Shown: positions 385 through 12,184, numbered from the stretch's first letter. The stretch is DNA of 64,000 nt from a virus (IMGVR_UViG_3300029305_002985:68092-132091); one strand, 5' to 3'. The notes: a model not told the origin generated them from the sequence alone. A program made the numbers and translations.

Positions 385-404
385 ATCGGTATTCGCTCCT
401 TCCT

Positions 405-478
405 TTTTATTACATATATATTATACCATAAAGTTGTGAACACCGTATGAACAAATTGTGAACATTTTGTGAACTTTA
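405..478 (-). promoter_or_regulatory. promoter (TGgTATAAT extended -10) overlapped by four GTTCACAA direct repeats at about 11-bp spacing
   Basis: Minus strand reads aagTTCACAAaatgTTCACAAtttgTTCATAcggtgTTCACAActttatggTATAAT. Repeats start near 434, 446, 457 and 468. Confidence 0.45.
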
Positions 479-481
479 TGG

Positions 482-505
482 GGAGGGGGCTTATAGCCCC
501 CTCAT
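482..505 (-). terminator. GC-rich hairpin downstream of the 507-854 gene
   Basis: gagggggc-ttat-agccccctc inverted repeat immediately after the stop codon (minus strand). No clear U-tract. Confidence 0.35.
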
Positions 506-506
506 A

Positions 507-854
507 TTAGGCGAGGGAGAAAGTGGAAACTTTCTTTTCCACCGACTTGATGACCTCACCGCTTGCGACCATCTTGCCAAGCATAGCGGTCACCTTTTGA
601 ACGGTGATGTCGGGGTAATCTGCGACCAGTGCCTTATGCACCTCGCTTGCGCGCTTGCCACCGTTTGCAAGCACCTCGGAGATTGCGATGAAATACTTTT
701 CATCGGCTTCGGCTTTCTTTGCGTTTGCGCTACCGCGCTTTGCATCTGCCTGTGCGATTTTCTTTTCGCACCACGCGACCACCTCGGCATCGTTCGCCAT
801 AGCGGAGATAATGCGGTTGAGAATGTCTTTGGAAGTAACCTTTTCGTTTGCCAT
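507..854 (-). CDS. hypothetical early protein, 115 aa; paralog of the 1404-1754 gene
   Basis: ORF with RBS GAAAGGAAAGG 9 nt upstream of the ATG. Shares ...DEK(Y/F)F.AI..VLA.G.KRA.EV..AL..D.TIQKVTAML.KMVA..V.K.VEKKVSTF.L with the protein at 1404-1754. Confidence 0.7.
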   Translation of the reverse strand: MANEKVTSKDILNRIISAMANDAEVVAWCEKKIAQADAKRGSANAKKAEADEKYFIAISEVLANGGKRASEVHKALVADYPDITVQKVTAMLGKMVASGEVIKSVEKKVSTFSLA

Positions 855-939
855 AGTGTTGTACCTTTCCTTTCATAGATAGAAGATTGATTTGTGGATT
901 GCGGTTTGGGAGAGCCGTACGCTCTCTCCCTCTCTGCTC

Positions 940-1003
940 TTATATTATACCATACTTTGAGCCGTTTGTCAAGGGGTTTTTGAAAAGTTTTTCAAATTTT
1001 TTT
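940..1003 (-). promoter_or_regulatory. early promoter, P1 type: UP-like palindrome TTGAAAA-N-TTTTCAA, -35 TTGACA, 17-nt spacer, TGgTATAAT
   Basis: Reverse complement reads ccTTGACAaacggctcaaagtatggTATAATataag. The -35 is at 967-972 and the -10 at 944-949. A stem-loop (GGGAGAGAGCGTACGGCTCTCCC) lies in the 5' UTR. Confidence 0.6.
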
Positions 1004-1189
1004 TCGCACCGCCTTGCGCTTGCGCTCTCTGTCTTGGTACATTTATATTATACCACAAACGGACGCGGATTGCAAGAGCAATACTGCACAAAATTTAGGT
1101 TGTTTTGTGGGAATTTTTTGTGCAAAATGCCGAGCGAGGTTTGCGCGGAAAAAGTTAGGTAAGGCTAACACCACGCGCAAATCGGCTCT

Positions 1190-1262
1190 GGAGCGACCGC
1201 TCCAGAGCCGGCAAATAAAAAAGGCGCGAGCCGTCGCTCACGCCTTTCCCGCGCGGTTGTGA
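1190..1262 (-). terminator. tandem rho-independent terminators downstream of the 1404 gene
   Basis: Minus-strand hairpins GCCGGCTCTGGAGCGGTCGCTCCAGAGCCG and GGCGTGAGCGACGGCTCGCGCC, the second followed by TTTTTTATTTGCC. Confidence 0.55.
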
Positions 1263-1403
1263 TGGCGTGATAGCCACCACGATAGACGGAGCAGGGGGTT
1301 TCACCCTCACACTCTCTCCCGGTGGCCGCCGTCGCGGTCGGGGGCGATTTCCTTTTTAATCTATCCGTCTATGTAGAGGGGCTTACGCCCCTCTGTGGGT
1401 GGA

Positions 1404-1754
1404 TTACTCGGCATCCTCACCCTCGCCATCAACCCCAAAGTTGAGGGCGAAAGTGGACACCTTCTTCTCCACGGTCTTGGTTACGCGCTTTGCCGCAACC
1501 ATCTTGGTGAGCATAGCCGTGACCTTCTGAATGGTCAGACCATCCATATCCTTTGCAAGCGCATTGAATACCTCGGTGGCGCGCTTGCCCTTGCCATCCG
1601 CGAGAACATCCGCAATCGCGTCAAAGAACTTCTCGTCCTCTGCGTTCTTCTTGGAGTTGGCGGAAATCGCCTTCTTCTCCAACTTTGCGATGCGCTCCTC
1701 GCAGAACTTGATGAGGTCATCGTGACCGCCGATTTCCTCGAACACGGAAATCAT
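1404..1754 (-). CDS. hypothetical early protein, 116 aa, paralog of 507-854. A probable N-terminal extension runs to the ATG at 1808 through an in-frame TAG at 1775-1773.
   Basis: ORF MISVFEEIGGHDD.... Upstream in frame: ATG(1808) GCT ACT GTT GTA AAG GCA AAG GCA CCC ACT TAG AAG GAG CAG TTC GGC AAG ATG(1754). The ATG at 1808 has the same RBS geometry as the paralog (AAAAGGAAGG + 9 nt). Confidence 0.6.
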   Translation of the reverse strand: MISVFEEIGGHDDLIKFCEERIAKLEKKAISANSKKNAEDEKFFDAIADVLADGKGKRATEVFNALAKDMDGLTIQKVTAMLTKMVAAKRVTKTVEKKVSTFALNFGVDGEGEDAE

Positions 1755-1865
1755 CTTGCCGAACTGCTCCTTCTAAGTGGGTGCCTTTGCCTTTACAACA
1801 GTAGCCATAGTAGTGTACCTTCCTTTTCTTATTTTTTTTATTGTCAGCGGCTCTCGCCTTACTGC

Positions 1866-1935
1866 TCTTATATTATACCACATTCCGTGGGGTTTGTCAA
1901 GAGGTTTTGCGAAAAATTTTTATTTTTTTCGCGCC
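1866..1935 (-). promoter_or_regulatory. early promoter P1 type (TTGACA-17-TGgTATAAT)
   Basis: Reverse complement ccTCTTGACAaaccccacggaatgTGgTATAAT. The -35 is at 1895-1900 and the -10 at 1872-1877. An A/T-rich UP-like segment lies upstream. Confidence 0.6.
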
Positions 1936-1953
1936 CTTTGTGGGGGAGAGGGA

Positions 1954-2721
1954 TTAACCCTCTCCCTTGATGGTGAATTTGATACCGCTATCGTTGGGGA
2001 GTTTGCGCTTGTTGGTATAGGGGAAGATATGCTCCTCGCCATCTGCGGAAACTACCTTAAACTCGCGCATAAGGTTGCGCGGAATGGAGCGATATACCTT
2101 GTAGTCGGTGTTCCACTCTGCGCCATTGATGATACAATAGTGCAGAATATCCAACTCAATCTCGGCATCCGCAAGGGCGGTGTGCGCTTCATCAAACTCT
2201 GCGTTCTGCGAGAGGAAACGATATACACTCTCTGCGGTGGTGGCAAAATTGCCACTTTCGGTGAACAGTTTATGCTTTTCGCAAAACTCTTGGTATGCGG
2301 TTTGGAAAGCGATAAACTTGTGGACATATCCGCGAATATCGTGGATTTTCACATTATCAAGCGGATTTGGGGTATGATGCCACTCGGCATTGAACGCGAA
2401 TACGCGCTTGTCAAAGTCGCTATTGAACGCATAGGCATCAGTAATGCCGAACTGTTCAATATCACTTGCGACCTTTGCCGCTACCCATTCCCATTTATGC
2501 TTGGTCATAAGGCGGTTAGCAAGCATATCCTCATAGCGCGCTCTCTTGTCCGCATAATATGCGGTGGAAAAGAGCATCATATTGTTCCATACATCGGTGA
2601 CGATATAGGAACGCTTTGCGACTATAACCTCTCGCTCGGTGTCAAACACACAGTAGCCGAGGTCATAGCAGAACGGCTTTTCAAGATTAGCCGTTTCGGT
2701 GTCAAAGACCATAATGTTCAT
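1954..2721 (-). CDS. DEDDh-family 3'-5' exonuclease (DnaQ/RNase T-like; comparable to T4 DexA-type phage exonucleases)
   Basis: N-terminal Exo I motif MVFDTETANL (D-x-E), central acidic motifs, and C-terminal Exo III motif HTALADAEIEL (H-x4-D). RBS GAGAGGAAA. 255 aa. Confidence 0.75.
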   Translation of the reverse strand: MNIMVFDTETANLEKPFCYDLGYCVFDTEREVIVAKRSYIVTDVWNNMMLFSTAYYADKRARYEDMLANRLMTKHKWEWVAAKVASDIEQFGITDAYAFNSDFDKRVFAFNAEWHHTPNPLDNVKIHDIRGYVHKFIAFQTAYQEFCEKHKLFTESGNFATTAESVYRFLSQNAEFDEAHTALADAEIELDILHYCIINGAEWNTDYKVYRSIPRNLMREFKVVSADGEEHIFPYTNKRKLPNDSGIKFTIKGEG

Positions 2722-2777
2722 CGGGGGTGTTTTCCTCTCTTTCTACCATAGGGGGTAGCCCTCGCTCCCCACTCGGT

Positions 2778-2850
2778 ACTTATATTATACCACATCTTGT
2801 GGCTTTTGTCAAGGGGTTTTTCAAAAGTTTTTTGAAAAATTTTTTCGAGC
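2778..2850 (-). promoter_or_regulatory. early promoter P1 type (TTGACA-17-TGgTATAAT) with UP-like TTGAAAA/TTTTCAA element
   Basis: -35 at 2807-2812 and -10 at 2784-2789 (reverse complement). Same cassette as at 940-1003. Confidence 0.6.
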
Positions 2851-2905
2851 CTTGCAAGGTGGCTTTTTCAAACGAAGCACGAAGCAACTACCGAAGCCCT
2901 CGCCC

Positions 2906-2990
2906 CTTGACATTTATAATTATACCACAAATGCGGGAAAATTGCAATAGGCAAATTGCACAAAGTTTTGCACAAAAATTTGTGCAAATT
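2906..2990 (-). promoter_or_regulatory. second upstream promoter P2 type (TTGCAA-17-TGgTATAAT) plus TTGCACAAAGTTTT motif and palindrome TTGCACAAAAATTTGTGCAA
   Basis: -10 at 2920-2925 and -35 at 2943-2948 (reverse complement). Motif at 2957-2970, 9-bp-arm palindrome at 2969-2988. Confidence 0.5.
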
Positions 2991-2995
2991 ACCAC

Positions 2996-3062
2996 TTGAC
3001 AGGCAAAACGGCTCGTGGCGCAGGACCACGAGCCGGCAAAAAGAGGGCGATTACTCGCCCTC
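2996..3062 (-). terminator. tandem rho-independent terminators downstream of the 3051 gene
   Basis: Minus strand: GAGGGCG-AGTAAT-CGCCCTC followed by TTTTT, then GGCTCGTGG-TCCTGCGC-CACGAGCC followed by GTTTTGCC. Confidence 0.65.
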
Positions 3063-3272
3063 AATTTCCTTCCAGTACTCCTCTTCCTCTTCGTTGGAGT
3101 TGATGTCAAGATAGACAATGTCGTCTTCTGCCGTAACCTCGCCAACCGTGCGGTAGTAGGCATCAATTTCATCTGTATCATTGTTGGGAACAAGGACAAT
3201 ATTGTTACCTTTTCCTTCTCCCATCAATTTGGTGAAAAACGCGTGCATCTCTTTTACAGTATAAACTTTCAT
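3051..3272 (-). CDS. hypothetical acidic early protein, 73 aa
   Basis: ORF with RBS AAGGAGA. Co-transcribed with the AbrB-like gene upstream, since no promoter lies between them. Confidence 0.55.
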   Translation of the reverse strand: MKVYTVKEMHAFFTKLMGEGKGNNIVLVPNNDTDEIDAYYRTVGEVTAEDDIVYLDINSNEEEEEYWKEIEGE

Positions 3273-3316
3273 TTTTCATTCTCCTTTATGTTTTTATGTA
3301 GAGGGCGTTTCCGCCC

Positions 3317-3790
3317 TCAATCATCCTCGTTGCGGATGGCATACTCTGCCGTGCGCACCATTGCGCGCACAAGTTTACTGTCTGCATCTTTGGGGAGAAC
3401 AAGGTATGCGATGGGTTGACATTGGTCACGGATGGGCACGACATAGTGGTCACCAATCTCCATTGCGCTCGTTGCGCAAGTTTCGAGGTGTTTGGGGAAA
3501 GAAGGGTTGTTTCGTCTGTTGACGAACAACAGTTCATCACTCTCGTTATAGAGAGCCACCGCATCTTCGCCAAACTCCATAGCCGCGCTACCATACAGTG
3601 CTTTGAGAATGGATTTGATGTTCTTTTCCTCGGTCACCATATGCTTCTTGAAGCAGACATACTTGCCATCCTCGCTCATATAGATTTCAAGGGGGTCGCC
3701 CTCGCGGATATGGAAATTTCTGCGGATTTCCTTAGGGATAACCACGCGACCGAGGTCATCAATTCTGCGAACAATTCCAGTTGCTTTCAT
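3317..3790 (-). CDS. AbrB/SpoVT-family transcription regulator (N-terminal swapped-hairpin domain plus C-terminal extension)
   Basis: N-terminus MKATGIVRRIDDLGRVVIPKEIRRNFHIREGDPLEIY is the canonical AbrB/MazE/SpoVT DNA-binding motif. 157 aa. Confidence 0.75.
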   Translation of the reverse strand: MKATGIVRRIDDLGRVVIPKEIRRNFHIREGDPLEIYMSEDGKYVCFKKHMVTEEKNIKSILKALYGSAAMEFGEDAVALYNESDELLFVNRRNNPSFPKHLETCATSAMEIGDHYVVPIRDQCQPIAYLVLPKDADSKLVRAMVRTAEYAIRNEDD

Positions 3791-3829
3791 AGTAAATACC
3801 TTCCTTTATGTTGTTATGTATGAGGGGCA

Positions 3830-4291
3830 TTAAAGCCCCTCTTTGATAAGGCGGAACAGGTCAAACAGACCATCGGCATCAACCGCGATACCGCCATTGT
3901 TCACCCACTCTCTGCGGTTGCGCTCCTCATCATCGACAAGGAAGCCGAAGCCCTCTGCCACGGTATATTTGGGAGTGCCGTATGCGAGAATGTGGATTTC
4001 GTCAAACTCAACCGAGGGCAGGTGCTTTGCCAACCACTTGCGCTTGACCTCTGCGACCTCTGCGTTATAGGCATCGGTTGCGTTCTTGGCAAGCCACGAG
4101 AGGACACAGACCTTAACCCCTTGCTTGCGGAGAGCGTTGATATAGCGCGCCATCGTAGCCATATGCACCATCGGCTTGGCTTGCGCGTAGGGGGTTGCGA
4201 TGTGGTTTTCAAGCATTTCGCGCCAACCCTCAACCGCGTAGAGGTCAGCGAAAGTTCCGTCCATATCAAGGTAAATGCGGATTTCGTTCAT
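3830..4291 (-). CDS. HAD-superfamily hydrolase, 5'(3')-deoxyribonucleotidase-like
   Basis: Motif I IYLDMDGTFADL (DxDGT) at the N-terminus. Size and pattern resemble NT5C-type nucleotidases. 153 aa. Confidence 0.6.
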   Translation of the reverse strand: MNEIRIYLDMDGTFADLYAVEGWREMLENHIATPYAQAKPMVHMATMARYINALRKQGVKVCVLSWLAKNATDAYNAEVAEVKRKWLAKHLPSVEFDEIHILAYGTPKYTVAEGFGFLVDDEERNRREWVNNGGIAVDADGLFDLFRLIKEGL

Positions 4292-4315
4292 AGTATGTTC
4301 TCCTTTTCCTTTGGT

Positions 4316-4390
4316 ACTTATATTATACCATACTTTTGGTGGTTTGTCAAGAGGGTTTTCAAAAAAAGTTGCAATCTTTTTTCAAGCAAG
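4316..4390 (-). promoter_or_regulatory. early promoter P1 type (TTGACA-17-TGgTATAAT)
   Basis: -35 at 4345-4350 and -10 at 4322-4327 (reverse complement). Confidence 0.6.
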
Positions 4391-4450
4391 GGTCTGTTTC
4401 TGTTCACTACCCTTCGCGCGTTTGGGTTTCTGTGTCCTTCCTCTCCCCTC

Positions 4451-4520
4451 TTGACATACTAATTATACCACATTCACGGGATTTTGTCAACAGTCAAGTT
4501 GCACAAAGTTTCGCGCGGAA
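4451..4520 (-). promoter_or_regulatory. upstream P2-type promoter plus GTTGCACAAAGTTT motif
   Basis: Reverse complement TTGACA...TGgTATAAT followed by TAGTATGTCAAG. Motif at 4498-4513. Confidence 0.45.
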
Positions 4521-4540
4521 AATGACCGAGGTTTGGTGAT

Positions 4541-4598
4541 AATGCACAAAACGGCACGCGGCGAGCGCCCGCGTGCCGAGCGAAAGAAAGGGCGCGGA
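4541..4598 (-). terminator. tandem terminators downstream of the 4599 gene
   Basis: Minus strand GGACGCGGAGTAATCCGCGCCC followed by TTTCTTTC, then GGCACGCGGGCGCTCGCCGCGTGCC followed by GTTTTGTGC. Confidence 0.55.
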
Positions 4599-4826
4599 TT
4601 ACTCCGCGTCCTCTTCTTCTACCTGTATTACTGCTTCTGTGGAAAAATCGCTCTCCACGGAATTGTGATACATATTTAACTTGCCCTCATTGTAGAGCAT
4701 CATCACTGCATCTTTAAGGGAGCATTCTTCTTCTTCTGCGCACTCTTGCACGAGTTGGCTTTGTTCCTCATCAAGATAACAAGTGTAAGTTACTGTTGCT
4801 TCAACAGTTACCGCAAATCTTGCCAT
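4599..4826 (-). CDS. hypothetical acidic early protein, 75 aa
   Basis: ORF with RBS AAAGGAGAAAAAAC. Preceded by the conserved hairpin-ACATAAAAACATAAAGGAG leader. Confidence 0.55.
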   Translation of the reverse strand: MARFAVTVEATVTYTCYLDEEQSQLVQECAEEEECSLKDAVMMLYNEGKLNMYHNSVESDFSTEAVIQVEEEDAE

Positions 4827-4878
4827 TGTTTTTTCTCCTTTATGTTTTTATGTATCGGCGTGGATTGCTCCGCGCCGA

Positions 4879-5214
4879 TTAAAGAGCCATCATAAAATTC
4901 CACCACCAAACCATCCAGCCGATGAACAAAAGAAAACCTATAATAAGGAAAACACCTCGGCATAAATTTCTTTGGTTCTTTTTTATCTTATATTGCTTCA
5001 TCTTTTGCTCATAATCTTTAAGAGCCGCTTCCCACAATTCTTTGCTTTCATAGTGTCGTGGATAGGGATAGCTGGGTCTAGAAAAGTCTGCGGCTAAATA
5101 TTCCCAACACCAACCAGTTACGACAACAAATATAATTGTGCAAAATAACATCAAGATTGCCATAATTTTTACCCCCAAATCATAATGATAAGATTGTATG
5201 CGTTCATCACCCAC
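4879..5214 (-). CDS. small membrane protein (2 TM). An alternative start at 5163 (MAILMLF...) is coupled to the upstream stop.
   Basis: Hydrophobic segments ILMLFCTIIFVVVTGW and VFLIIGFLLFIGWMVWWW. TAAAAATTATG overlap with the upstream gene. Confidence 0.5.
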   Translation of the reverse strand: MGDERIQSYHYDLGVKIMAILMLFCTIIFVVVTGWCWEYLAADFSRPSYPYPRHYESKELWEAALKDYEQKMKQYKIKKNQRNLCRGVFLIIGFLLFIGWMVWWWNFMMAL

Positions 5215-5420
5215 AGTGCCACATTAAGCACCACCAAGTTGATGCGCCTTGCTTGCCAACAAAATGCCGTTGCGATGGTCGCGCCGATGAAGAACGGAAT
5301 TGTCGCGTTCACGCCACAGATAACCAACACCGCGCAAAGCACATAGATAAGTGCGGTGATGTCGGTCACATCAAAGCGGTATGCGCGGTTGAGTTCAAAG
5401 TAGTTCTTAAATGCACGCAT
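5169..5420 (-). CDS. small membrane protein, 83 aa, 2-3 TM
   Basis: Segments ALIYVLCAVLVICGV and FFIGATIATAFCW. RBS GAGGTG. Its start overlaps the end of the 5407 gene. Confidence 0.55.
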   Translation of the reverse strand: MRAFKNYFELNRAYRFDVTDITALIYVLCAVLVICGVNATIPFFIGATIATAFCWQARRINLVVLNVALWVMNAYNLIIMIWG

Positions 5421-5589
5421 CTTCTAACACCTCGTTTCCATCGCTTTCAAAGATTGCGGCGGTTGTGAAGCCCCAACCGCAACCGCATCTGTAATAACTT
5501 ATTCTCTTGATAGTCCAACCATTTTCTTCATATTCGGTTTCAAAGAGTTTAGGTTGCGCGGTGCTACCGCAGTTAGGACACTTTACCAT
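5407..5589 (-). CDS. zinc-ribbon protein, 60 aa
   Basis: CPNCG ... CGCGWG four-Cys arrangement. Confidence 0.5.
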   Translation of the reverse strand: MVKCPNCGSTAQPKLFETEYEENGWTIKRISYYRCGCGWGFTTAAIFESDGNEVLEDACI

Positions 5590-5590
5590 T

Positions 5591-5776
5591 TTATAACTCT
5601 CCTAACTTGATAACAGAAATAATCACAAAGTCTGTTACCATATTCTCTTTGCTATTATAGTGGTCGGGCAAAGCGGCAAGCCACTCCGCAAGGTCGCGTT
5701 CGTGCCAGATAAAATTATTGCAATCGACCTCAAAGCGGTCAAGACTTGCGGAATAAAGTGTTGCAAGATAGGTCAT
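5591..5776 (-). CDS. hypothetical protein, 61 aa (start MTYLATLYS)
   Basis: The ORF-track upstream extension overlaps the promoter -10 (ATGTGGTATAAT), so the true start is the ATG at 5776, after RBS GAGAGGAGAACATAAAA. Confidence 0.5.
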   Translation of the reverse strand: MTYLATLYSASLDRFEVDCNNFIWHERDLAEWLAALPDHYNSKENMVTDFVIISVIKLGEL

Positions 5777-5802
5777 TTTTATGTTCTCCTCTCTCTTGGT
5801 AT

Positions 5803-5862
5803 TATTATTATACCACATTTGATTGAGTTTGTCAAGGGGTTTTATAAATTTTTTTGGAAGGT
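5803..5862 (-). promoter_or_regulatory. early promoter P1 type (TTGACA-17-TGgTATAAT) for the 5776-to-4879 operon
   Basis: -35 at 5830-5835 and -10 at 5807-5812 (reverse complement). Confidence 0.6.
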
Positions 5863-5896
5863 CTTATCTCCTAGAGCGTACCACGCACTTCCTCCC

Positions 5897-5965
5897 CTTG
5901 ACAATAATATTATATCACATTTGCAGGAAATAGTCAATAGTCAAAATCACCAAAGTTTCGCTCGC
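5897..5965 (-). promoter_or_regulatory. upstream P2-type promoter plus motif variant TCACCAAAGTTT
   Basis: Same cassette family as 2906-2990. CTTGACAATAATATTATATCAC. Confidence 0.4.
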
Positions 5966-5995
5966 AAAAATGGCGGCAACTGGTTAAATTGCACA

Positions 5996-6030
5996 AAACG
6001 GAGCGCGCCGACCCTGCGCGCTCCGCTCGG
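5996..6030 (-). terminator. rho-independent terminator downstream of the 6145 gene
   Basis: Minus strand GGAGCGCGCAGGGTCGGCGCGCTCC followed by GTTTTGTGCAA. Confidence 0.55.
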
Positions 6031-6144
6031 AACTTTAGGCAAAAATAAAAAAGCCTAGACACGAGAAATTCGGTCTAGAAATTGTGGAAGAGGTCTACTT
6101 CGCGGAAAACCGACGCTCGCACGATCGCTTGCGCCGTCCAGCGA

Positions 6145-6444
6145 TTACTGGAAGTGTTTAATCACATCTTGTGCATTGTATTCATTTTCGTCTTTCTCCA
6201 AGATAATAATTGTTCTTTCAATTTCGGCACAGTTGCCTAAATTTTGGATGGTTGAAATAACTTTCGAAATCTCTTCCGCACAATCATTTTTTGTCCCGTC
6301 AGAATGGAAGAGTAGCCGCGCGGACTCTTTGCAAAATAACGCGTGAACCGCGAAATCCGTGGCGGCAACTGCCTCCCACTCAAGAGGGACAAGAGAAGAC
6401 TCAAAAGGTGTTAGCACAAGAGCGTGGATTAAATGATACTCCAT
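6145..6444 (-). CDS. hypothetical early protein, 99 aa
   Basis: ORF with RBS AAAAGGAGG. Promoter TTGACA-17-TATAAT directly upstream at 6450-6508. Confidence 0.6.
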   Translation of the reverse strand: MEYHLIHALVLTPFESSLVPLEWEAVAATDFAVHALFCKESARLLFHSDGTKNDCAEEISKVISTIQNLGNCAEIERTIIILEKDENEYNAQDVIKHFQ

Positions 6445-6449
6445 CGCTT

Positions 6450-6508
6450 TGACCTCCTTTTATCTCTTTGTATTATTATTATAATATAAATTTTTCAAAA
6501 TGTCAAAT
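6450..6508 (-). promoter_or_regulatory. promoter TTGACA-17-TATAAT
   Basis: Reverse complement atTTGACAttttgaaaaatttatatTATAATaataatacaaagagataaaaggagg. Confidence 0.6.
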
Positions 6509-6509
6509 G

Positions 6510-6549
6510 CGGCAGACCTAGGTTTTTCTTCCTTGACCTAGGTCTGCCG
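6510..6549 (-). terminator. 14-bp perfect-stem hairpin (terminator for the 6683-6557 operon)
   Basis: gcggcagacctagg-N14-cctaggtctgccgc. On the minus strand it is followed by ATTTGACATTTTG. Confidence 0.55.
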
Positions 6550-6556
6550 CACTTTC

Positions 6557-6661
6557 AAAATTCATCGTAGTGTTCAGCCGCATCTTTCTCATCCTTTGGG
6601 ATAGCGCCCCAAAAGATGCCAAGCACCGCCGCAAAAATAAAGATTACCGCGATTTCCATAG
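6557..6661 (-). CDS. 34-aa hydrophobic membrane peptide
   Basis: MEIAVIFIFAAVLGIFWGAIPKDEKDAAEHYDEF with RBS GGAGAAAACT. Below the ORF-track size cutoff. Confidence 0.4.
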
Positions 6662-6682
6662 TTTTCTCCTTTTGAAGGGCGA

Positions 6683-7189
6683 TTACTCGCCCTTCTGCAA
6701 TTTAAGATATTCTTTTACCATTTCGGCAACATCTACCGAACTACCGCGCGTTTGTGCCATTCTGATTTTTTCTTCAAAGGGGTGCGCCTTGCGCCATTCA
6801 AGTGCAATTTGCTCTTGTTCAAGATTGTAAGCAATACATTGTTCGTATTCTTCTTCAAAGTTGAGTTCACGGAAGCGGTCTGTCAAGGTGTCATTTTTGG
6901 TTTCACAAGTGACAATGTTGATGCTTGCCCACACCATTATCACAAAGCAAGCGACCGCGCCAACCGCGAAGCGCCAATCCCAATAGGTGTCTGCCAAACA
7001 AGCGAAAGTGAGGGTTGCGATGAACAAAGGCAACCAAAGGTACAAGCAAAAGTGTTGAAGCCACTCGTTGCGGTTAATGGCTTTTTCAGTCTGCTGGTCA
7101 ACCTCTTTTGCAAAAGCCTTTTCCTCATTGTCAAAGCCATTGGTGTTGGGGTTAAAGGTCTTGTAGGTGAAGCAACGAGAGAGTGTCAT
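6683..7189 (-). CDS. membrane protein, 168 aa, 2 TM
   Basis: Segments LYLWLPLFIATLTFACL and AVGAVACFVIMVWASINIV. Confidence 0.6.
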   Translation of the reverse strand: MTLSRCFTYKTFNPNTNGFDNEEKAFAKEVDQQTEKAINRNEWLQHFCLYLWLPLFIATLTFACLADTYWDWRFAVGAVACFVIMVWASINIVTCETKNDTLTDRFRELNFEEEYEQCIAYNLEQEQIALEWRKAHPFEEKIRMAQTRGSSVDVAEMVKEYLKLQKGE

Positions 7190-7262
7190 TGTTCTGTTCT
7201 CCTTTTGATGTAGTGTTCAAGAAGGGCTCTGTATCTGTTGCTCCGTCACTGGCGGAATGTTT

Positions 7263-7360
7263 GTGTCATCCCCTCTTGACACTTATATTATATCATAAAT
7301 GCAGGATTTCGTCAATAGGCAAGTTGCACAAACTTTTGGCGCGGAAATTGTGCAAGGTGC
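7263..7360 (-). promoter_or_regulatory. P2-type promoter (TTGACG-17-TGaTATAAT) with upstream GTTGCACAAACTTTTGG motif and inverted partner ATTGTGCAAGG
   Basis: Reverse complement cctaTTGACGaaatcctgcatttatgaTATAATataagtgtcaag. Motif at 7324-7340. Confidence 0.5.
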
Positions 7361-7376
7361 TAGGCTACAGTAAAAT

Positions 7377-7430
7377 CGCGCCGTGGCAAACGGTCACGGC
7401 GCGGCGAGAGTTTCCTCTCAACCGCGCCGC
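7377..7430 (-). terminator. tandem hairpins downstream of the 7435 gene
   Basis: gcgccgtg-gcaaacggt-cacggcgc and gcggcg...cgccgc. On the minus strand they are followed by GATTTTACTG. Confidence 0.45.
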
Positions 7431-7434
7431 GCGC

Positions 7435-7746
7435 TTAATTCATTTTGAAGATGGGGTCAATGTCAATCGGCACAGGGCAGTTCTCTCCATAGCACTCAAT
7501 GGTGATGGAGTAGCGCTTCGTGCGCCAAAATTCGCGGTTCCACGGCTTGTAGTAGACAACCATAGAGATTTTGTGCTTGCTTCGGTTGTGGTCGATGGGA
7601 CAGACTTTTTCAGCAAAACTGCACACCTGCTCGTTTGCGCCCTTGCGCTTTTTGAGTATTTCGATGGCTTTAGCTCGTGCCGTGGTGAAATCGGTGAAGG
7701 CGCGCTTTTCGTGATGGTAGTTGACCATAAATACAGACATTTTCAT
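7435..7746 (-). CDS. hypothetical protein, 103 aa, third gene of the MazF-like operon
   Basis: ORF 17 nt downstream of the MazF-like gene, with RBS AAAAGGAGAACATAACA. Confidence 0.55.
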   Translation of the reverse strand: MKMSVFMVNYHHEKRAFTDFTTARAKAIEILKKRKGANEQVCSFAEKVCPIDHNRSKHKISMVVYYKPWNREFWRTKRYSITIECYGENCPVPIDIDPIFKMN

Positions 7747-7762
7747 TGTTATGTTCTCCTTT

Positions 7763-8110
7763 TCAAAATAGATTGAGTTGAATTTTGAGCGCTTTGCTTA
7801 CTCTTGCCATTTCCTCGGCGGTGGCTTCGCCCATATACTTGGACAGTCGGCACTTGTCAATGGTGCGGACTTGCTCACAGAGGATAGTGCCTTTGATGGC
7901 GCGTCCCTCAATGGGATAGAGGGTTGCGTGGGTGGGAATAGGTTTCTTGACTTGGGAGGTTATGGAGCAAACCGTGACCGTGGTGCTTCGCGCGTTGTTA
8001 ATGTCATTTGACACAATCAATACAGGGCGCAAACCGCCTTGCTCGCTACCCCTTGCAGGGGAGAGGTCAGCGTAGAAAATCTGACCTCTCTTGATAGGGT
8101 TATTCATCAT
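7763..8110 (-). CDS. PemK/MazF-family endoribonuclease toxin homolog, about 115 aa
   Basis: MMNNPIKRGQIFYADLSPARGSEQGGLRPVLIVSNDINNARSTTVTVCSITS...ATLYPIEGRAIKGTILCEQVRTIDKCRL matches the MazF/PemK/Kid fold motifs. Start taken as the ATG at 8110; the longer ORF-track extension is unlikely. Confidence 0.7.
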   Translation of the reverse strand: MMNNPIKRGQIFYADLSPARGSEQGGLRPVLIVSNDINNARSTTVTVCSITSQVKKPIPTHATLYPIEGRAIKGTILCEQVRTIDKCRLSKYMGEATAEEMARVSKALKIQLNLF

Positions 8111-8321
8111 AGTCAAACCCCTCAACCACCTTGCGCTCGGTATGCGCCTCACAGTGGTACATAACCTCACCCGTCCAACGATTGACCACATCGCACACAT
8201 CGGCGTGTCCGCAATCCACACGGATATAGCCGTATGCTTTTGCATCGTCAAGTTCCTCAAAGTCCGCCTTGTGCTTGCCATCAAGCAGTACCATAAGGTC
8301 GCAGGTTTCAATGTTCATCAT
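8100..8321 (-). CDS. Cys/His-rich 73-aa protein overlapping the MazF-like start by 11 nt; candidate non-canonical antitoxin
   Basis: Overlap geometry typical of antitoxin-toxin pairs. Motif DCGHADVCDV...YHCEAH. No MazE/AbrB-like fold is recognisable. Confidence 0.5.
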   Translation of the reverse strand: MMNIETCDLMVLLDGKHKADFEELDDAKAYGYIRVDCGHADVCDVVNRWTGEVMYHCEAHTERKVVEGFDYDE

Positions 8322-8364
8322 AATATGTTCTCCTTTTCTTGTCGGGGTCTTACCCCTTTGACAC

Positions 8365-8440
8365 TTATATTATACCACATTTGTGGCAGTTTGTCAAGGG
8401 GTTTTTCAAACTTTCTTTGAAAAATTTTTTATCAACAGTG
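8365..8440 (-). promoter_or_regulatory. early promoter P1 type (TTGACA-17-TGgTATAAT) with UP-like palindrome
   Basis: -35 at 8392-8397 and -10 at 8369-8374 (reverse complement). Confidence 0.6.
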
Positions 8441-8496
8441 AGTGGGGTTTGTTCCATTACCTTGCAAGTACCCCATATTCTTTTACTTCCTGTCCC

Positions 8497-8580
8497 CTTG
8501 ACACTTATATTATATCACATTTTCGGGATAAATGCAATAGGCAGAATAGACAAAGTTTCGCACAAGTTTTTGTGCAAAAT
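8497..8580 (-). promoter_or_regulatory. upstream P2-type promoter plus GACAAAGTTTCG motif and palindrome GCACAAGTTTTTGTGC
   Basis: CTTGACACTTATATTATATCAC. Palindrome at 8559-8576. Confidence 0.45.
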
Positions 8581-8594
8581 GCTAGCCCACCCAC

Positions 8595-8648
8595 AAAACG
8601 GCTCGGCGCGACCCACGCCGAGCCGCTGAACAAAGAAAGGTTGGGCTT
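8595..8648 (-). terminator. tandem rho-independent terminators downstream of the 8647 gene
   Basis: Minus strand GGTTGGGCATAAGCCCAACC followed by TTTCTTTGTT, then GGCTCGGCGTGGGTCGCGCCGAGCC followed by GTTTTGTG. Confidence 0.6.
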
Positions 8649-8925
8649 ATGCCCAACCCCTCTCTTTTTTAATTTGTTCGTAGCGCTCTGCCTTTTCGCG
8701 CTCGATTTTTTCTTTATCATACACGCGACACTTGATGCCCGTGTAGCCATACTTTTTGAGGTCTGCGCCGCTCCAATAGCGCTTTGCGCATATCTTCTTG
8801 ACGCCTTCCATTTGGTAGTGGCTCTTGTTCTCACAGTATGCCGCTATGCTCGGCACTTCAATGATTGCGCTGACCGCGCGATAGCCTTTGTCGCTTACGA
8901 GAGTGACCTGAATTTGTTTGCTCAT
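8647..8925 (-). CDS. hypothetical basic protein, 92 aa
   Basis: ORF in an ATGA-overlapped operon with the 8922-9116 gene. Confidence 0.55.
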   Translation of the reverse strand: MSKQIQVTLVSDKGYRAVSAIIEVPSIAAYCENKSHYQMEGVKKICAKRYWSGADLKKYGYTGIKCRVYDKEKIEREKAERYEQIKKERGWA

Positions 8926-9116
8926 TTGTTCTTACCTCTCTTTCTCTTTTTGTATGCCTTATAGATGGCACGACCGATGGGGATTGCAAGCATTGGGGAG
9001 AAGATTGCGCAGACCGCAATGGTGAGTTTTTCATCCCACGCATATTGGTCATCAATCAAAATGCAAATCCAAGTGTTAAGGAGTATCCAACCGAGAATAA
9101 TTGCAAGTGCTATCAT
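8922..9116 (-). CDS. small membrane protein, 64 aa, 2 TM
   Basis: Segments IALAIILGWILLNTWICILI and AVCAIFSPMLAIPIG, with a basic tail. Confidence 0.55.
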   Translation of the reverse strand: MIALAIILGWILLNTWICILIDDQYAWDEKLTIAVCAIFSPMLAIPIGRAIYKAYKKRKRGKNK

Positions 9117-9130
9117 CTTATGTACCTCTC

Positions 9131-9200
9131 TTTCTGTACTTTTATTATATCATATTTGCTTGCTCTTATCAATAGGCATTATGCACAAAGTTTTGGGGCG
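9131..9200 (-). promoter_or_regulatory. promoter TTGATA-17-TGaTATAAT plus TTATGCACAAAGTTTTGGGG motif
   Basis: Reverse complement cctaTTGATAagagcaagcaaatatgaTATAATaaaagtacag. Confidence 0.5.
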
Positions 9201-9207
9201 GGACTTG

Positions 9208-9516
9208 TCAACAATAGACAAGTCCCATATCGCGCCAGCGCAACACGCTGATTTGATTGCACGCGCGCCCGACTTCCAGCGCTTCGCGCTTCGTTGCTAC
9301 GCGGTGGCTTTTGTCGATATAGTAAACACCTTCGCTGAACCAAACACCGCAGTTGCCGCTATATGCCTTTACTGCATTGATGGCTTCGCGTGCGGTGCGG
9401 CACTCGATGCCCTCGGTGGCTACTTGGTAGCCTGTCTTATGGGTGATGCACTTGCCGCCTTTAAGCGTCAAGCCGTCATTGTCACGCAGTTTGAGAATGG
9501 TGCGAATGTTAATCAT
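9208..9516 (-). CDS. hypothetical protein, 102 aa (start MINIRTILKL)
   Basis: ATG at 9516 preceded by GGTTTACAGTT. The longer ORF-track version runs into the upstream promoter. Confidence 0.5.
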   Translation of the reverse strand: MINIRTILKLRDNDGLTLKGGKCITHKTGYQVATEGIECRTAREAINAVKAYSGNCGVWFSEGVYYIDKSHRVATKREALEVGRACNQISVLRWRDMGLVYC

Positions 9517-9559
9517 AACTGTAAACCTCTTGTATGTATTCAGTAGGGGTTGTACTTCC

Positions 9560-9626
9560 CCCTTCTGTACCTTAATTATACCACACTTTGCACCTTTTGT
9601 CAATAGACAAGTTGCACAAAGTTGAG
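9560..9626 (-). promoter_or_regulatory. promoter TTGACA-17-TGgTATAAT plus GTTGCACAAAGTT motif
   Basis: Reverse complement tctaTTGACAaaaggtgcaaagtgTGgTATAATtaagg. Confidence 0.55.
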
Positions 9627-9642
9627 GTTGGGGTTTTGGTTA

Positions 9643-9810
9643 TTATCCCCAAACCTCTGCTTCTGCTTGCGCGGCAGTGGTGTAAACAGTGGTGGCAAGC
9701 ACGCGCCCGTTGTTTGCTTGTGCGAACTCTTGTGCCGCGGCTTCAGTGGTGAACATAGCAAGAAGGTCAGCCTCAAACTCGGTGTTTTCCCATACTGCGT
9801 AGATAGTCAT
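9643..9810 (-). CDS. hypothetical 55-aa protein
   Basis: MTIYAVWENTEFEADLLAMFTTEAAAQEFAQANNGRVLATTVYTTAAQAEAEVWG with RBS GAGAGG. Below the ORF-track cutoff. Confidence 0.45.
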   Translation of the reverse strand: MTIYAVWENTEFEADLLAMFTTEAAAQEFAQANNGRVLATTVYTTAAQAEAEVWG

Positions 9811-9845
9811 TTTTTGTACCTCTCATTTATGTATTTGGAAGGTCT

Positions 9846-9900
9846 TTCCCCTTCCTTCTGTAATAATTATACTACTTTTTGCCTCATTTGTCAAGCCTTT
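9846..9900 (-). promoter_or_regulatory. promoter TTGACA-17-TATAAT
   Basis: Reverse complement ggcTTGACAaatgaggcaaaaagtagTATAATtattacagaaggaagg. Confidence 0.55.
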
Positions 9901-10018
9901 TTCAGGATTTTTTCTTCGTCATTTTGCACAAAATTTCGCGCGATTTTTATTTGATAGTTGTGCATTCTGCCCAACATAGGGCCCGCGCGGCCGCACACGA
10001 AAGCACAAGGCACTGTGC

Positions 10019-10336
10019 TTAATCAGCACAGTACCCTCTGCGATAGTTATTATTTATTGCGGTGAAGAGGAAGTGCGGCAGCCGCTCAATGCGAAAGTGT
10101 CTCTTCACTTGCCCCACAGTAGGACAGTACATAGTGATGATTTCCTCTTGTTGATTGCGGATAATCATCACACCAGTGGAAGTGAGATAGAGAGTGACAG
10201 CCTCGCGCCATTCTCTTCTATCCTCTTCTTTGATAGTCATCACTGTTCTACCAAAGCCAACCTCTGTGGCAATTCTTGCATACCTGTCAAGCCTGTCTTG
10301 CTCCATGTGTTTTGTAAGAGTTACTCTCATCATCAT
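10019..10336 (-). CDS. hypothetical protein, about 105 aa (start MMMRVTL)
   Basis: ATG at 10336 lies 5 nt after RBS GAGGTGA. It is co-transcribed with the 10347-10508 gene (10-nt gap). Confidence 0.5.
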   Translation of the reverse strand: MMMRVTLTKHMEQDRLDRYARIATEVGFGRTVMTIKEEDRREWREAVTLYLTSTGVMIIRNQQEEIITMYCPTVGQVKRHFRIERLPHFLFTAINNNYRRGYCAD

Positions 10337-10346
10337 GGCGCTCACC

Positions 10347-10508
10347 TCACGCGTTCAGCGCCTTAAGAATTTCTCTGCGCTCTGCTTCAAGTTCGCGGCG
10401 TCTGTTCCAGTTCTCGTTCCACTTGTTGTAAGCATCGCACATCTCGATTGCCCACAGTTCGTTCTCGATTGCTTCAAGTCTTGCTTCCATCTTTGCTCTG
10501 TCCATCAT
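10347..10508 (-). CDS. 53-aa coiled-coil-like protein
   Basis: MMDRAKMEARLEAIENELWAIEMCDAYNKWNENWNRRRELEAERREILKALNA with RBS AAAAGAGGTAAAG. Confidence 0.45.
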   Translation of the reverse strand: MMDRAKMEARLEAIENELWAIEMCDAYNKWNENWNRRRELEAERREILKALNA

Positions 10509-10555
10509 TGTTCTTTACCTCTTTTTATGTATTTGGAAGGGGTCTCTCTCCCTCT

Positions 10556-10645
10556 TTCCATAATTATTATACCACATTGGGTGGCTCTTGTCAAGTGGCA
10601 AGATGCACAAACTTTTCATTGTTTGTTCGTGCATCTTGCACAAGG
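10556..10645 (-). promoter_or_regulatory. promoter TTGACA-17-TGgTATAAT plus imperfect inverted pair of the GCACAAAC motif
   Basis: Reverse complement ccacTTGACAagagccacccaatgTGgTATAAT. ATGCACAAAC...GTTCGTGCAT at 10604-10640. Confidence 0.5.
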
Positions 10646-10661
10646 TTTATTAATCCTCGTA

Positions 10662-10787
10662 CTTGTAAAGGAATGCGCCGTGCTTGCGCGTTTCCACTTG
10701 CATCTCTTGCTTGCTCATACCCATACAACACACTTTGTGTCCATCCCCAAACACGAACCAGTACCACTTCTTTGCCATTTTAATTTA
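10662..10787 (-). CDS. 41-aa peptide
   Basis: MAKKWYWFVFGDGHKVCCMGMSKQEMQVETRKHGAFLYKYED with RBS GAGAGG. Confidence 0.35.
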
Positions 10788-10814
10788 CCTCTCTTGTATG
10801 TATTTTTGAGGTTG

Positions 10815-10870
10815 GGCTCTTGCCCTTCCTTCTGTAATTATTATACCATAAAAGCAGGTGTTTGTCAATA
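10815..10870 (-). promoter_or_regulatory. promoter TTGACA-17-TGgTATAAT
   Basis: Reverse complement cctaTTGACAaacacctgcttttatggTATAATaattacagaagg. Confidence 0.55.
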
Positions 10871-10899
10871 GGTTTTTTGAAATATTTTTATTGTTTACA

Positions 10900-10985
10900 A
10901 TTTGTTCACAATTTCAGGATTAACATAAAGTTTACAAATTATTAACAATTCGTTCACAAATTATTTACAAATTGTTTACAATTTA
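10900..10985. repeat. array of seven 11-bp-periodic direct repeats GTT(T/C/A)ACAA(A/T)TT; iteron- or operator-like
   Basis: TTTACAA/TTCACAA/TTAACAA units start at 10904, 10915, 10931, 10942, 10954, 10965 and 10976. Same core as the array at 430-478 but in opposite orientation. Confidence 0.6.
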
Positions 10986-11018
10986 AAAACCGCACCGCGC
11001 CGGGTGTTCGCGGTGCGG
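10985..11018 (-). terminator. rho-independent terminator, minus orientation
   Basis: Stem ccgcaccgcg/cgcggtgcgg with 9-nt loop, flanked by AAAAA at 10985-10989 (TTTTT on the minus strand). Confidence 0.6.
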
Positions 11019-11224
11019 CGATCGATTTAATGGGGCGTGTCTACACACCATTCGCGCGTATTTTTTTGGCCTGACTACACAGTAATCTCTCTCTATTAAC
11101 CGGGGGTGGTTTATGGGAAAAAATTTTTTCTCGTTGTGGAAAATGGCTTTTCCTCGTACACCCACCCTCCAAATCTTTTTTCAATTTAGGAAAACGAAAA
11201 CCCCCATCCTTCCCCTCATCTCGA

Positions 11225-11260
11225 TAAAAAAAAGCGAGACACGCTTGCGCGTATCTCGCC
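11225..11260 (-). terminator. rho-independent terminator for the lipase gene
   Basis: Minus strand GCGAGATACGCGCAAGCGTGTCTCGC followed by TTTTTTTTATCGAG. Confidence 0.65.
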
Positions 11261-11273
11261 TCGGTCGTTAAGG

Positions 11274-12026
11274 TTAATCATCTAACCCCATTTCAATTCT
11301 CAATACAACCCCATCTTCACTTTCATCAAAAGCCTTTAAACTTTTTACCATCTCGCTTTGATAATGCGGCCACACAGCCACAATCTCTCTCGCAGCTTTC
11401 GTATCTCTAAATCCACTCTTTATCCACTGCCATAATGCCGCAAATGGCTTCCACTTGCCGCCTATCTTAACCATCTCTCCAACATGGCAGAAACCAAATG
11501 CACGAGGCGGCATATGGGTCACGATATCCGCGCGGTTGCGGAAGACTCTAAAATTCTTCCATCTCTCTTGCAATTCATCCTTAACCCAAAATCCTGAATA
11601 AATGCGCGGCCCTTCAAAACTAATCCCCCAGCAGGTGCCGCGAATATCGGGGCGATGGAACCAGATACACTCATGCGCGAATGCGGCAAGGGCGCCGCCG
11701 TGACTATACCCAATCACCACGATCTTTTGCCACTTATACTCCAAATCAGTGAGGCTCTTGGTTTCCGTAATCTTCTTAATGATGATGTCCTCAACTTCTT
11801 TCCATGCGGCAAGGAAACCCCCGTGCACTCTATAGGGAATCTTCATGTCTTTATAAGGCTTGCGCCAATAGCTGAAGTTGCGGCGCCAATCAACATCTCC
11901 ATTGCTACCCTCAAAATAGATATAAAGCGCGCGGCCGTCCTCGACGAACGCATAGTTTACATGATTGCCACACTCTTGATATTTGACATCATAAGCGCAA
12001 TTTCTGAATAATTTTTCAAAGGTCAT
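11274..12026 (-). CDS. class-3 (fungal-type) lipase / alpha-beta hydrolase
   Basis: Nucleophile-elbow motif VVIGYSHGGALAAF (GxSxG) within a lipase_3-like arrangement. RBS AAAGGAGA. Standard code, no in-frame TAG. 250 aa. Confidence 0.65.
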   Translation of the reverse strand: MTFEKLFRNCAYDVKYQECGNHVNYAFVEDGRALYIYFEGSNGDVDWRRNFSYWRKPYKDMKIPYRVHGGFLAAWKEVEDIIIKKITETKSLTDLEYKWQKIVVIGYSHGGALAAFAHECIWFHRPDIRGTCWGISFEGPRIYSGFWVKDELQERWKNFRVFRNRADIVTHMPPRAFGFCHVGEMVKIGGKWKPFAALWQWIKSGFRDTKAAREIVAVWPHYQSEMVKSLKAFDESEDGVVLRIEMGLDD

Positions 12027-12121
12027 AATAAAATTCTCCTTTCATTATATTTTCCCTTTAAATATATAAAAATGGCGGCAATCCAATTAATTAAATTTGC
12101 CCTCAATGCGGCTGCCGCGTC

Positions 12122-12150
12122 TTGACTTCCGCAAAATTTTTTATTACACT
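12122..12150 (+). promoter_or_regulatory. candidate plus-strand promoter TTGACT-17-TACACT at the head of the late block
   Basis: cTTGACTtccgcaaaattttttatTACACT. Weak -10. Confidence 0.3.
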
Positions 12151-12184
12151 TTCTATATAGAAGAACTAGTGAAAGGAGCCTTAA

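What the first reader, a model, noticed from the sequence alone, without database searches (positions are those of the whole stretch)
900..10870. Highly repetitive insulated transcription-unit cassette between nearly every early gene
At least ten intergenic regions on the minus strand share one architecture. In order: a stop codon; one or two rho-independent terminators whose U-tract merges into TTTTGTGC; a conserved AAACTTTGTGCAA motif (plus-strand TTGCACAAAGTTT, at least eight copies, often a 9-bp-arm palindrome such as TTGCACAAAAATTTGTGCAA at 2969-2988); a P2 promoter (TTGNNN-17-TGnTATAAT followed by ATAAGTGTCAAG); about 50 nt further on, a P1 promoter with an upstream palindromic TTGAAAA-N-TTTTCAA UP-like element and a perfect TTGACA-17-TGgTATAAT; a 5' UTR that usually begins with a GC stem-loop; and a strong GGAGG-type RBS. 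Such dense, near-identical strong promoters plus terminators imply that each early gene is an individually regulated unit. The TTGCACAAAGTTT palindrome is a candidate site for a phage regulator. Candidates are the AbrB-like protein at 3317-3790 or the HTH-like protein at 1-384. This regulator could convert immediate-early expression from P1 into delayed-early expression from P2.
Basis: seen in the sequence. Interest (0 to 1): 0.6.

Follow-up and report, generated by a model that had tools for sequence, protein, structure and literature searches.

The report
Repeated early promoter-terminator cassettes in phage
The early region of this gut phage is split into about 14 short transcription units by repeated strong host-type promoters and hairpin terminators, as in other lytic phages; one promoter class carries a conserved upstream box (TTTGTGCAA) that also occurs in hundreds of related phage promoters and in some host promoters.

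Summary
The repeats are real and far beyond chance. All 12 perfect TTGACA-17-TATAAT sites in the 64-kb window lie on the minus strand between 944 and 10868 (about 0.001 expected). 14 of 15 TTTGTGCA copies lie in the same region.

Only 5 intergenic regions carry the full cassette (double terminator, box promoter, then UP-type promoter). Promoters sit at 13 of 24 gene junctions, and the quoted consensus strings are exact only twice.

There are two promoter families:
- Class 1 has an A/T-tract, often dyad, upstream element, then AAAACCCC and perfect hexamers.
- Class 2 has a TTTGTGCAA box fixed 9 bp upstream of an often imperfect -35.

The box is not specific to this phage. It occurs in register in at least 100 viral-contig stretches (a scrambled control gave 1), in the published relative phAss-1, and upstream of host genes in Oscillospiraceae/Clostridia MAGs. 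The closest relatives keep the box but have no AbrB-like gene at the syntenic position.

This is a Firmicutes-phage counterpart of T4 PeSL cassettes and the SPO1 host-takeover module. Interest is moderate.

The parts
10983..11026 (-). Hairpin terminator upstream of the early array
   Evidence: -22.4 kcal/mol, z -3.4, followed by UUUUU
10840..10868 (-). Class 1 promoter, first early unit (gene 10778-10650)
   Evidence: 12/12 match, TG extension, AAAAAACCTA upstream
10566..10615 (-). Class 2 promoter (10566-10594) with box at 10603-10615; further TTGTGCA copy at 10636-10648
9866..9936 (-). Promoter 9866-9894 with the box displaced to 30 nt upstream of the -35 (9924-9936)
9575..9624 (-). Class 2 promoter with box 9612-9624
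9144..9193 (-). Class 2 promoter (-35 TTGATA) with box 9181-9193
8322..8662 (-). Full cassette: double terminator 8592-8662; inverted-repeat boxes 8556-8576; class 2 promoter 8509-8537 (-35 TTGCAT); class 1 promoter 8369-8397; 5' hairpin; ribosome-binding site
7190..7434 (-). Terminators 7368-7434; inverted half-site 7347-7354; box 7324-7336; class 2 promoter 7287-7315. No class 1 promoter
6478..6562 (-). Terminator 6508-6562 directly followed by a third promoter type (6478-6506) that resembles the plus-strand late promoters
5777..6130 (-). Full cassette: terminators 5992-6130 (tail TTTTGTGCAA); degenerate box; class 2 promoter 5909-5937 (-35 TTGACT); class 1 promoter 5807-5835
4292..4612 (-). 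Full cassette: double terminator 4543-4612 (tail TTTTGTGCA); box 4499-4511; class 2 promoter 4462-4490; class 1 promoter 4322-4350
2722..3066 (-). Full cassette: double terminator 3000-3066; three boxes 2956-2988 including the 20-bp palindrome 2969-2988; class 2 promoter 2919-2947 (-35 TTGCAA); dyad A/T element; class 1 promoter 2784-2812
1872..1900 (-). Class 1 promoter of gene 1808-1404
855..1262 (-). Full cassette: double terminator 1183-1262; boxes 1117-1124 (inverted) and 1084-1096; class 2 promoter 1047-1075 (-35 TTGCAA); dyad A/T element; class 1 promoter 944-972
3317..3790 (-).
   Evidence: PF04014, 1.3e-9; TIGR01439, 9.7e-13. Absent from the syntenic position in L306 and L033

Best explanation
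The minus strand from 1 to about 11000 is the early, host-takeover-type region of a large siphovirus-like phage that reads TAG as a sense codon and infects Clostridia (Oscillospirales-type hosts). The phage is distantly related to phAss-1.

Shown from sequence:
- The 25 small genes form about 14 units. Each starts with one or two near-consensus promoters of the host primary-sigma type (extended -10). Most end in one or two GC hairpin terminators.
- The promoters fall into two families. Class 1 has phased A/T tracts, often a dyad TTTTSAAAAA-N-TTTTS'AAAAA, then AAAACCCC and a perfect TTGACAAA-N14-TGGTATAAT. Class 2 has a TTTGTGCAA box at -52 to -44, a conserved TTGcCTA linker, an often imperfect -35 and a conserved TTTCCCG spacer.
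- In five regions class 2 lies 102-143 bp upstream of class 1.

Inferred:
- Host RNA polymerase fires all these promoters right after infection, and the terminators insulate the units from one another.
- Class 1 is constitutively maximal.
- Class 2 depends partly on a factor already present in the uninfected host that contacts the box on a fixed helical face. This could be the alpha C-terminal domain of the polymerase or a host activator. It would give the same genes a second, host-state-dependent input.
- The 5' hairpins and strong ribosome-binding sites raise mRNA stability and translation.
- The 60-150-bp near-identical cassettes also act as homology patches for gene shuffling between related phages.
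For: Promoter and terminator counts against chance.

Two families and cassette alignment.

Fixed register of the box relative to the -10 hexamer (-39 in 214 cases, -40 in 65) across 1776 extended -10 sites in fetched loci.

Weaker -35 in box promoters (58% against 83% perfect, p 3e-10; in the window 3/9 against 7/7, p 0.011).

Box outside this phage:
- At least 100 viral stretches against 1 for a scrambled control.
- phAss-1 at 130804, 132858 and 134861.
- Host promoters of a LacI-family gene in 31 MAG species, with an unconserved upstream flank.
- Host promoters of ACP, RimM, substrate-binding and secreted-protein genes.

Strong-promoter density is 0.82 per kb in phage loci against 0.067 per kb in chromosomal loci.

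The same class 1/class 2 arrays and tandem order occur in the closest relatives.

Gene insertions and deletions relative to L306/L033 fall at cassette borders. For example, AbrB-like gene + g3272 + terminators + P2 is inserted between g4291 and the P1 of g2721.

The dyad symmetry of the class 1 upstream element is kept through G/C swaps (34 of 38, p 1.5e-7).
Against: - No transcription data exist. Start sites, promoter strength, termination efficiency and timing are all inferred.
- The second hairpins have only a 4-U tail, so termination may be partial.
- The factor that binds the box is unidentified.
- The box is not A/T-rich like known UP elements. In 225 kb of chromosomal sequence it occurred only at the LacI-family promoter, so it is not a general host promoter feature.
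- Many box-bearing loci share early genes with this phage (g2721 in 83 loci, g4291 in 84). A conserved phage factor therefore cannot be excluded.
- The host occurrences were found with an exact pattern, which inflates apparent conservation.
- The promoter statistics treat related sequences as independent.
Confidence: 0.7

Rival explanations
1. The TTTGTGCAA/TTGCACAAA box is the operator of a phage-encoded regulator (the AbrB-like protein at 3317-3790, the protein at 1-384, or the paralogs at 854-507 and 1808-1404). This regulator switches expression between P1 and P2 during infection.
For: - Box arrangements look like operators: the 20-bp palindrome at 2969-2988, inverted copies at 8556-8576, 7347-7354/7324-7336 and 1117-1124/1084-1096, and extra copies one helical turn upstream.
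- An AbrB/SpoVT-domain protein is encoded in the region.
- Many box-bearing loci share early genes with this phage.
Against: - The box occurs in register at host chromosomal promoters in many species, with no phage genes nearby.
- The AbrB-like gene is found in only 20 of about 316 fetched loci. It is missing from the syntenic slot in the two closest relatives, which still have box promoters.
- Box promoters have weaker -35 hexamers, which is the signature of an activating site.
- The protein at 1-384 has no detectable DNA-binding family.
Confidence: 0.2
2. The cassettes matter mainly as recombination modules, like the PeSL elements of T4-type phages. Conserved promoter-terminator units flank small accessory genes and mediate their insertion, deletion and exchange. 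The conserved flanks, including the box, persist because recombination homogenises them. This does not exclude the best explanation.
For: - Near-identical 60-150-bp cassettes recur over 11 kb.
- Relatives differ by whole-gene insertions and deletions that begin and end at cassette elements.
- The same promoter families occur in many contigs that carry different genes.
- PeSL precedent: PMC2839356 and PMC4122927.
Against: - Homogenisation within phages does not explain conservation of the box at single-copy host promoters.
- It does not explain the fixed register of the box to the -35, or its link with weaker -35 hexamers.
- No recombination junctions or mini-circles can be observed from sequence.
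Confidence: 0.3
3. The box has no function of its own. It is sequence that travelled along when one ancestral promoter, possibly captured from a host gene, was duplicated many times.
For: Class 2 promoters are similar over their whole length, including the spacer (TTTCCCG) and the initial transcribed region. Host and phage versions also share the TTGCCTA linker.
Against: - In 31 host species the sequence upstream of the box has diverged while the box has not.
- Across phages the spacer and flanks vary while the box and its register persist.
- A scrambled box placed before the same linker is found once, against at least 100 times for the real box.
Confidence: 0.1

Closest known systems
PeSL (promoter-early stem-loop) cassettes of T4-type phages (Arbiol et al. 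2010, PMC2839356; Comeau et al. 2014, PMC4122927)
   Same: Small repeated intergenic units that combine a strong host sigma-70-type early promoter, an A/T-rich upstream region and a GC stem-loop terminator. They are concentrated among small accessory genes. Gene gain and loss between relatives occurs at the cassettes.
   Different: The phage here is from a different lineage and host phylum: a siphovirus-like, TAG-recoded phage of Clostridia. The stem-loops lie upstream of the promoter as separate, often double, terminators rather than inside it. There are two promoter families in tandem, and one has a specific non-A/T box also found at host promoters. Recombination and mini-circles are not shown.
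SPO1 host-takeover module (Stewart et al. 1998, as cited in PMC6873191 and PMC10531801)
   Same: About 12 kb holding 24-26 small early genes in multiple operons. The promoters and ribosome-binding sites are typical of very highly expressed genes and are recognised by host sigma-A. The window has 25 genes in about 14 units over 11 kb.
   Different: No homologous genes were detected (PHROG and Pfam give no SPO1 families). Location in a terminal redundancy cannot be judged from the window. SPO1 has no reported equivalent of the TTTGTGCAA box. The phage here is not Herelleviridae: its capsid protein is related to those of phAss-1, EF1 and SPbeta-like phages.
UP elements and upstream activator sites of bacterial promoters (own knowledge: Ross and Gourse UP element; Class I/II activators)
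   Same: Class 1 promoters have phased A-tracts from -40 to -60, like UP elements. The class 2 box sits at -52 to -44 in a fixed register and goes with weaker -35 hexamers, as expected of a recruiting element.
   Different: The box is not A/T-rich and does not match the UP consensus. No known regulator motif was matched: not cre, CodY, Rex or the Spo0A box (comparison by eye, not a test). The binding protein is unknown.
phi29 early promoters carrying host Spo0A boxes (own knowledge: Meijer et al. 2005)
   Same: This is a precedent for a lytic Firmicute phage that places binding sites for a host regulator at its early promoters, so that infection follows host physiology.
   Different: The box sequence differs from the 0A box (TGTCGAA). 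The box here looks activating rather than repressing. Nothing has been shown experimentally.

Membership tests
Primary-sigma (sigma-70/sigma-A) promoter with extended -10 | -35 TTGACA, 17+/-1 bp spacer, -10 TATAAT | tested here: met
   12 sites match 12/12 and 7 more match at least 10/12. All lie on the coding strand upstream of genes.
Primary-sigma (sigma-70/sigma-A) promoter with extended -10 | TG at -15/-14 (typical of Firmicutes) | tested here: met
   17 of the 19 class 1 and class 2 promoters, counting 6506 and 9894, have the TG.
Primary-sigma (sigma-70/sigma-A) promoter with extended -10 | Transcription initiates 6-8 nt downstream of the -10 | not testable with these tools
   No transcriptome or in vitro data.
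Intrinsic (rho-independent) terminator | GC-rich hairpin directly followed by a U-tract | tested here: met
   The first hairpins have 5-8 U-rich tails, -22 to -51 kcal/mol, z down to -8.7. The second hairpins have only a UUUUG tail, so their efficiency is uncertain.
UP element | A/T-rich, phased A-tracts between -40 and -60 | tested here: met
   Met for class 1: AAAAATTTTTCAAAAAACTTTTGAAAAACCCC and similar. The consensus over about 1300 promoters of related loci shows the same.
UP element | Same definition applied to the class 2 box | tested here: not met
   TTTGTGCAAnTTGcCTA is not A/T-rich.
PeSL cassette (T4-type phages) | [quoted passage not shown] | tested here: met
PeSL cassette (T4-type phages) | Cassettes are sites of gene exchange or mini-circle formation | tested here: inconclusive
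   Insertions and deletions relative to L306/L033 coincide with cassette borders, but only two relatives were compared and no junctions were observed.
PeSL cassette (T4-type phages) | Belongs to the T4-like myovirus lineage | tested here: not met
   Capsid and portal proteins are related to phAss-1, Enterococcus EF1 and SPbeta-like phages.
SPO1-type host-takeover module | Cluster of small early genes in many operons with very strong sigma-A promoters and ribosome-binding sites | tested here: met
SPO1-type host-takeover module | Located in the terminal redundancy; genes homologous to SPO1 gp37-60 | tested here: not met
   No homology to any annotated PHROG or Pfam family apart from the AbrB/MazE, MazF, nucleotidase-like and exonuclease-like matches. 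Terminal location cannot be tested in this window.
AbrB/SpoVT-type regulator acting on the box | N-terminal swapped-hairpin AbrB domain | tested here: met
   PF04014 at 1.3e-9; TIGR01439 at 9.7e-13
AbrB/SpoVT-type regulator acting on the box | Regulator co-occurs with its operator | tested here: not met
   Box promoters occur in host chromosomes and in the closest relatives, which have no AbrB-like gene at the syntenic slot. The gene was seen in 20 of about 316 loci, although the flanks are short.
AbrB/SpoVT-type regulator acting on the box | Specific binding to TTTGTGCAA | not testable with these tools
   Needs gel-shift or footprinting.

The most novel reading that the evidence does not exclude
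The TTTGTGCAA-N-TTGnCTA box is the recognition element of an undescribed upstream promoter system of Oscillospirales-type Clostridia, either a host activator or an unusual polymerase contact. A very large clade of uncultivated gut and rumen phages, many of them TAG-recoded, has copied it into hundreds of early promoters. Part of early transcription would then be tied to host physiological state, while box-less UP-type promoters fire unconditionally. The same cassettes would also serve as portable recombination modules that spread takeover genes across the clade.
Probability: 0.3. Interest if true: 0.6.

Novelty: new variant of a known kind. Interest (0 to 1): 0.4.

Why it matters
Dense arrays of strong host-type promoters with terminators are the expected design of a lytic phage's takeover region, so the basic finding is ordinary. 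Three things add value.

- It gives a concrete regulatory map for a group of TAG-recoded gut phages. Neither the published genome record nor the paper annotates any promoter.
- It defines two promoter families, supported by about 1500 examples, that could serve as strong portable promoters for Oscillospiraceae and other Clostridia that lack genetic tools.
- It points to a specific 9-bp box shared by phage early promoters and a few host promoters. This is a testable handle on an unknown host transcription factor or polymerase contact in bacteria that are hard to study.

Tried and rejected
- Megablast of the early region against deposited phages found nothing. Distant blastn found only the AbrB-domain segment.
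- An Rfam scan of 1-13000 at E up to 1 gave only two chance-level hits. No known RNA family explains the leaders or the structured 1258-1403 segment.
- Full-text search for the motif strings found only unrelated primer matches, and none for the 13-mers. Searches for promoters in recoded gut phages found no description.
- PDB sequence searches for g854 and g384 found nothing.
- Single-sequence AlphaFold models were weak (pLDDT 66 and 58). The Foldseek search with the g384 model gave no match at E below 0.8. The 'HTH-like' label for 1-384 could therefore be neither confirmed nor refuted; its N-terminus is predicted strand-helix-helix.
- I considered whether the host LacI-family regulator itself binds the box and rejected it. 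Its promoter already has a canonical palindrome (TGAAAACGnTTnA) over the -35, and the box also precedes unrelated genes.
- By eye, the box does not match CRP/FNR, Rex, CodY, Spo0A or Spx-type motifs. These are recollections, not tests.
- The first 50 kb of phAss-1 has no array. Its array lies at 119-135 kb.
- AAAACCCCTTGACAAA, with 16 fixed bases, is too short for a collection scan to be informative.

Full report
Context. The window comes from a large phage. With the standard code the plus strand from 12 to 64 kb is broken into short ORFs. If TAG is read as sense it yields ORFs of up to 2487 and 1791 aa. Portal and capsid proteins are recognisable. The capsid protein is 45% identical to that of phAss-1, a 136-kb TAG-recoded human-gut phage predicted to infect Eubacteriales. 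It is more distantly related to Enterococcus EF1-like and SPbeta-like phages (PMC10607447). The finding concerns the oppositely oriented block on the minus strand from 1 to about 11000. This block is richer in G+C (44-50% against 32-37% in much of the late region). It encodes 25 small proteins, all ending in TAA or TGA. Few have recognisable families: a SpoVT/AbrB/MazE-domain protein, a MazF/PemK toxin, a nucleotidase-like protein and an exonuclease-like protein.

Noticed in passing
window 12000-64000 (+), e.g. 28882-36345 and 36454-41829: TAG is used as a sense codon in the late and structural genes: ORFs of 2487 and 1791 aa appear only when TAG is read through. No tRNA gene, suppressor or other, lies in the window. 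Early genes end only in TAA or TGA.
   Followed up: partly
window 1808-1404 (-), TAG at about 1775-1773: An early gene driven by a class 1 promoter has an in-frame TAG at codon 12. The TAG lies inside the region homologous to its paralog 854-507 (50% identity). Full-length product would therefore need TAG read-through already in the early phase. An AAGGAG and an ATG 18 codons downstream could allow re-initiation.
   Followed up: partly
window 434-474 and 10891-10985: Arrays of 11-bp-period repeats with core TTGTRAAC lie in opposite orientation at the two ends of the early region; 8 of the 10 copies in the window are in these arrays. The array at 434-474 takes the place of a -35 in front of the TGGTATAAT of gene 384-1. 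It looks like an operator or activator array, or iterons, and its motif differs from the TTTGTGCAA box.
   Followed up: partly
window 6478-6506 (-); 28166, 36394, 50007, 16755 (+): A third promoter type has TTGACW, an A/T-rich near-palindromic spacer and TATAAT without the TG, often followed by the leader AAGAGATAAAAGGAGG. It occurs in front of late plus-strand genes and once inside the early region. The same type is repeated in phAss-1 at 119-126 kb.
   Followed up: partly
window, ends of most early genes (e.g. 3043-3062, 4593-4608, 8639-8658, 6676-6690): The stop codon often sits in the loop of a GC hairpin (GAGTAATC, CATAAG and similar). Internal genes are preceded by a conserved leader TACATAAAAACATAAAGGAG (near 3290, 3825 and 4850).
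   Followed up: no
window 7763-8110 and 8100-8321 (-); 3317-3790 (-): A MazF/PemK-type toxin gene (Pfam 2e-30) overlaps an upstream 73-aa gene that could encode its antitoxin. A separate SpoVT/AbrB/MazE-domain protein is encoded 4 kb away. So this is toxin-antitoxin-like content in a phage early region.
   Followed up: partly
window 1258-1403 (-): A 146-nt non-coding stretch after gene 1808-1404 folds into a long-range stem enclosing smaller hairpins (-60.9 kcal/mol, z -4.0). It has no Rfam match and is not conserved in the fetched loci.
   Followed up: partly
L314 (JAZNAJ010000257.1), L229, L039 and other fetched loci: In other phage contigs, box promoters often fire straight into a GC hairpin a few bases after the start site. 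In L314 two box promoters converge on one hairpin about 90 bp apart. Their purpose is unknown; short RNAs or insulators are possibilities.
   Followed up: no
genome loci L217-L319 (e.g. L224, L233, L253): A LacI-family regulator gene in many Oscillospiraceae/Clostridia MAGs has a very conserved promoter. It combines the TTTGTGCAA box, a -35 overlapping a cre-like palindrome (TGAAAACGnTTnA), and TATTAT.
   Followed up: partly
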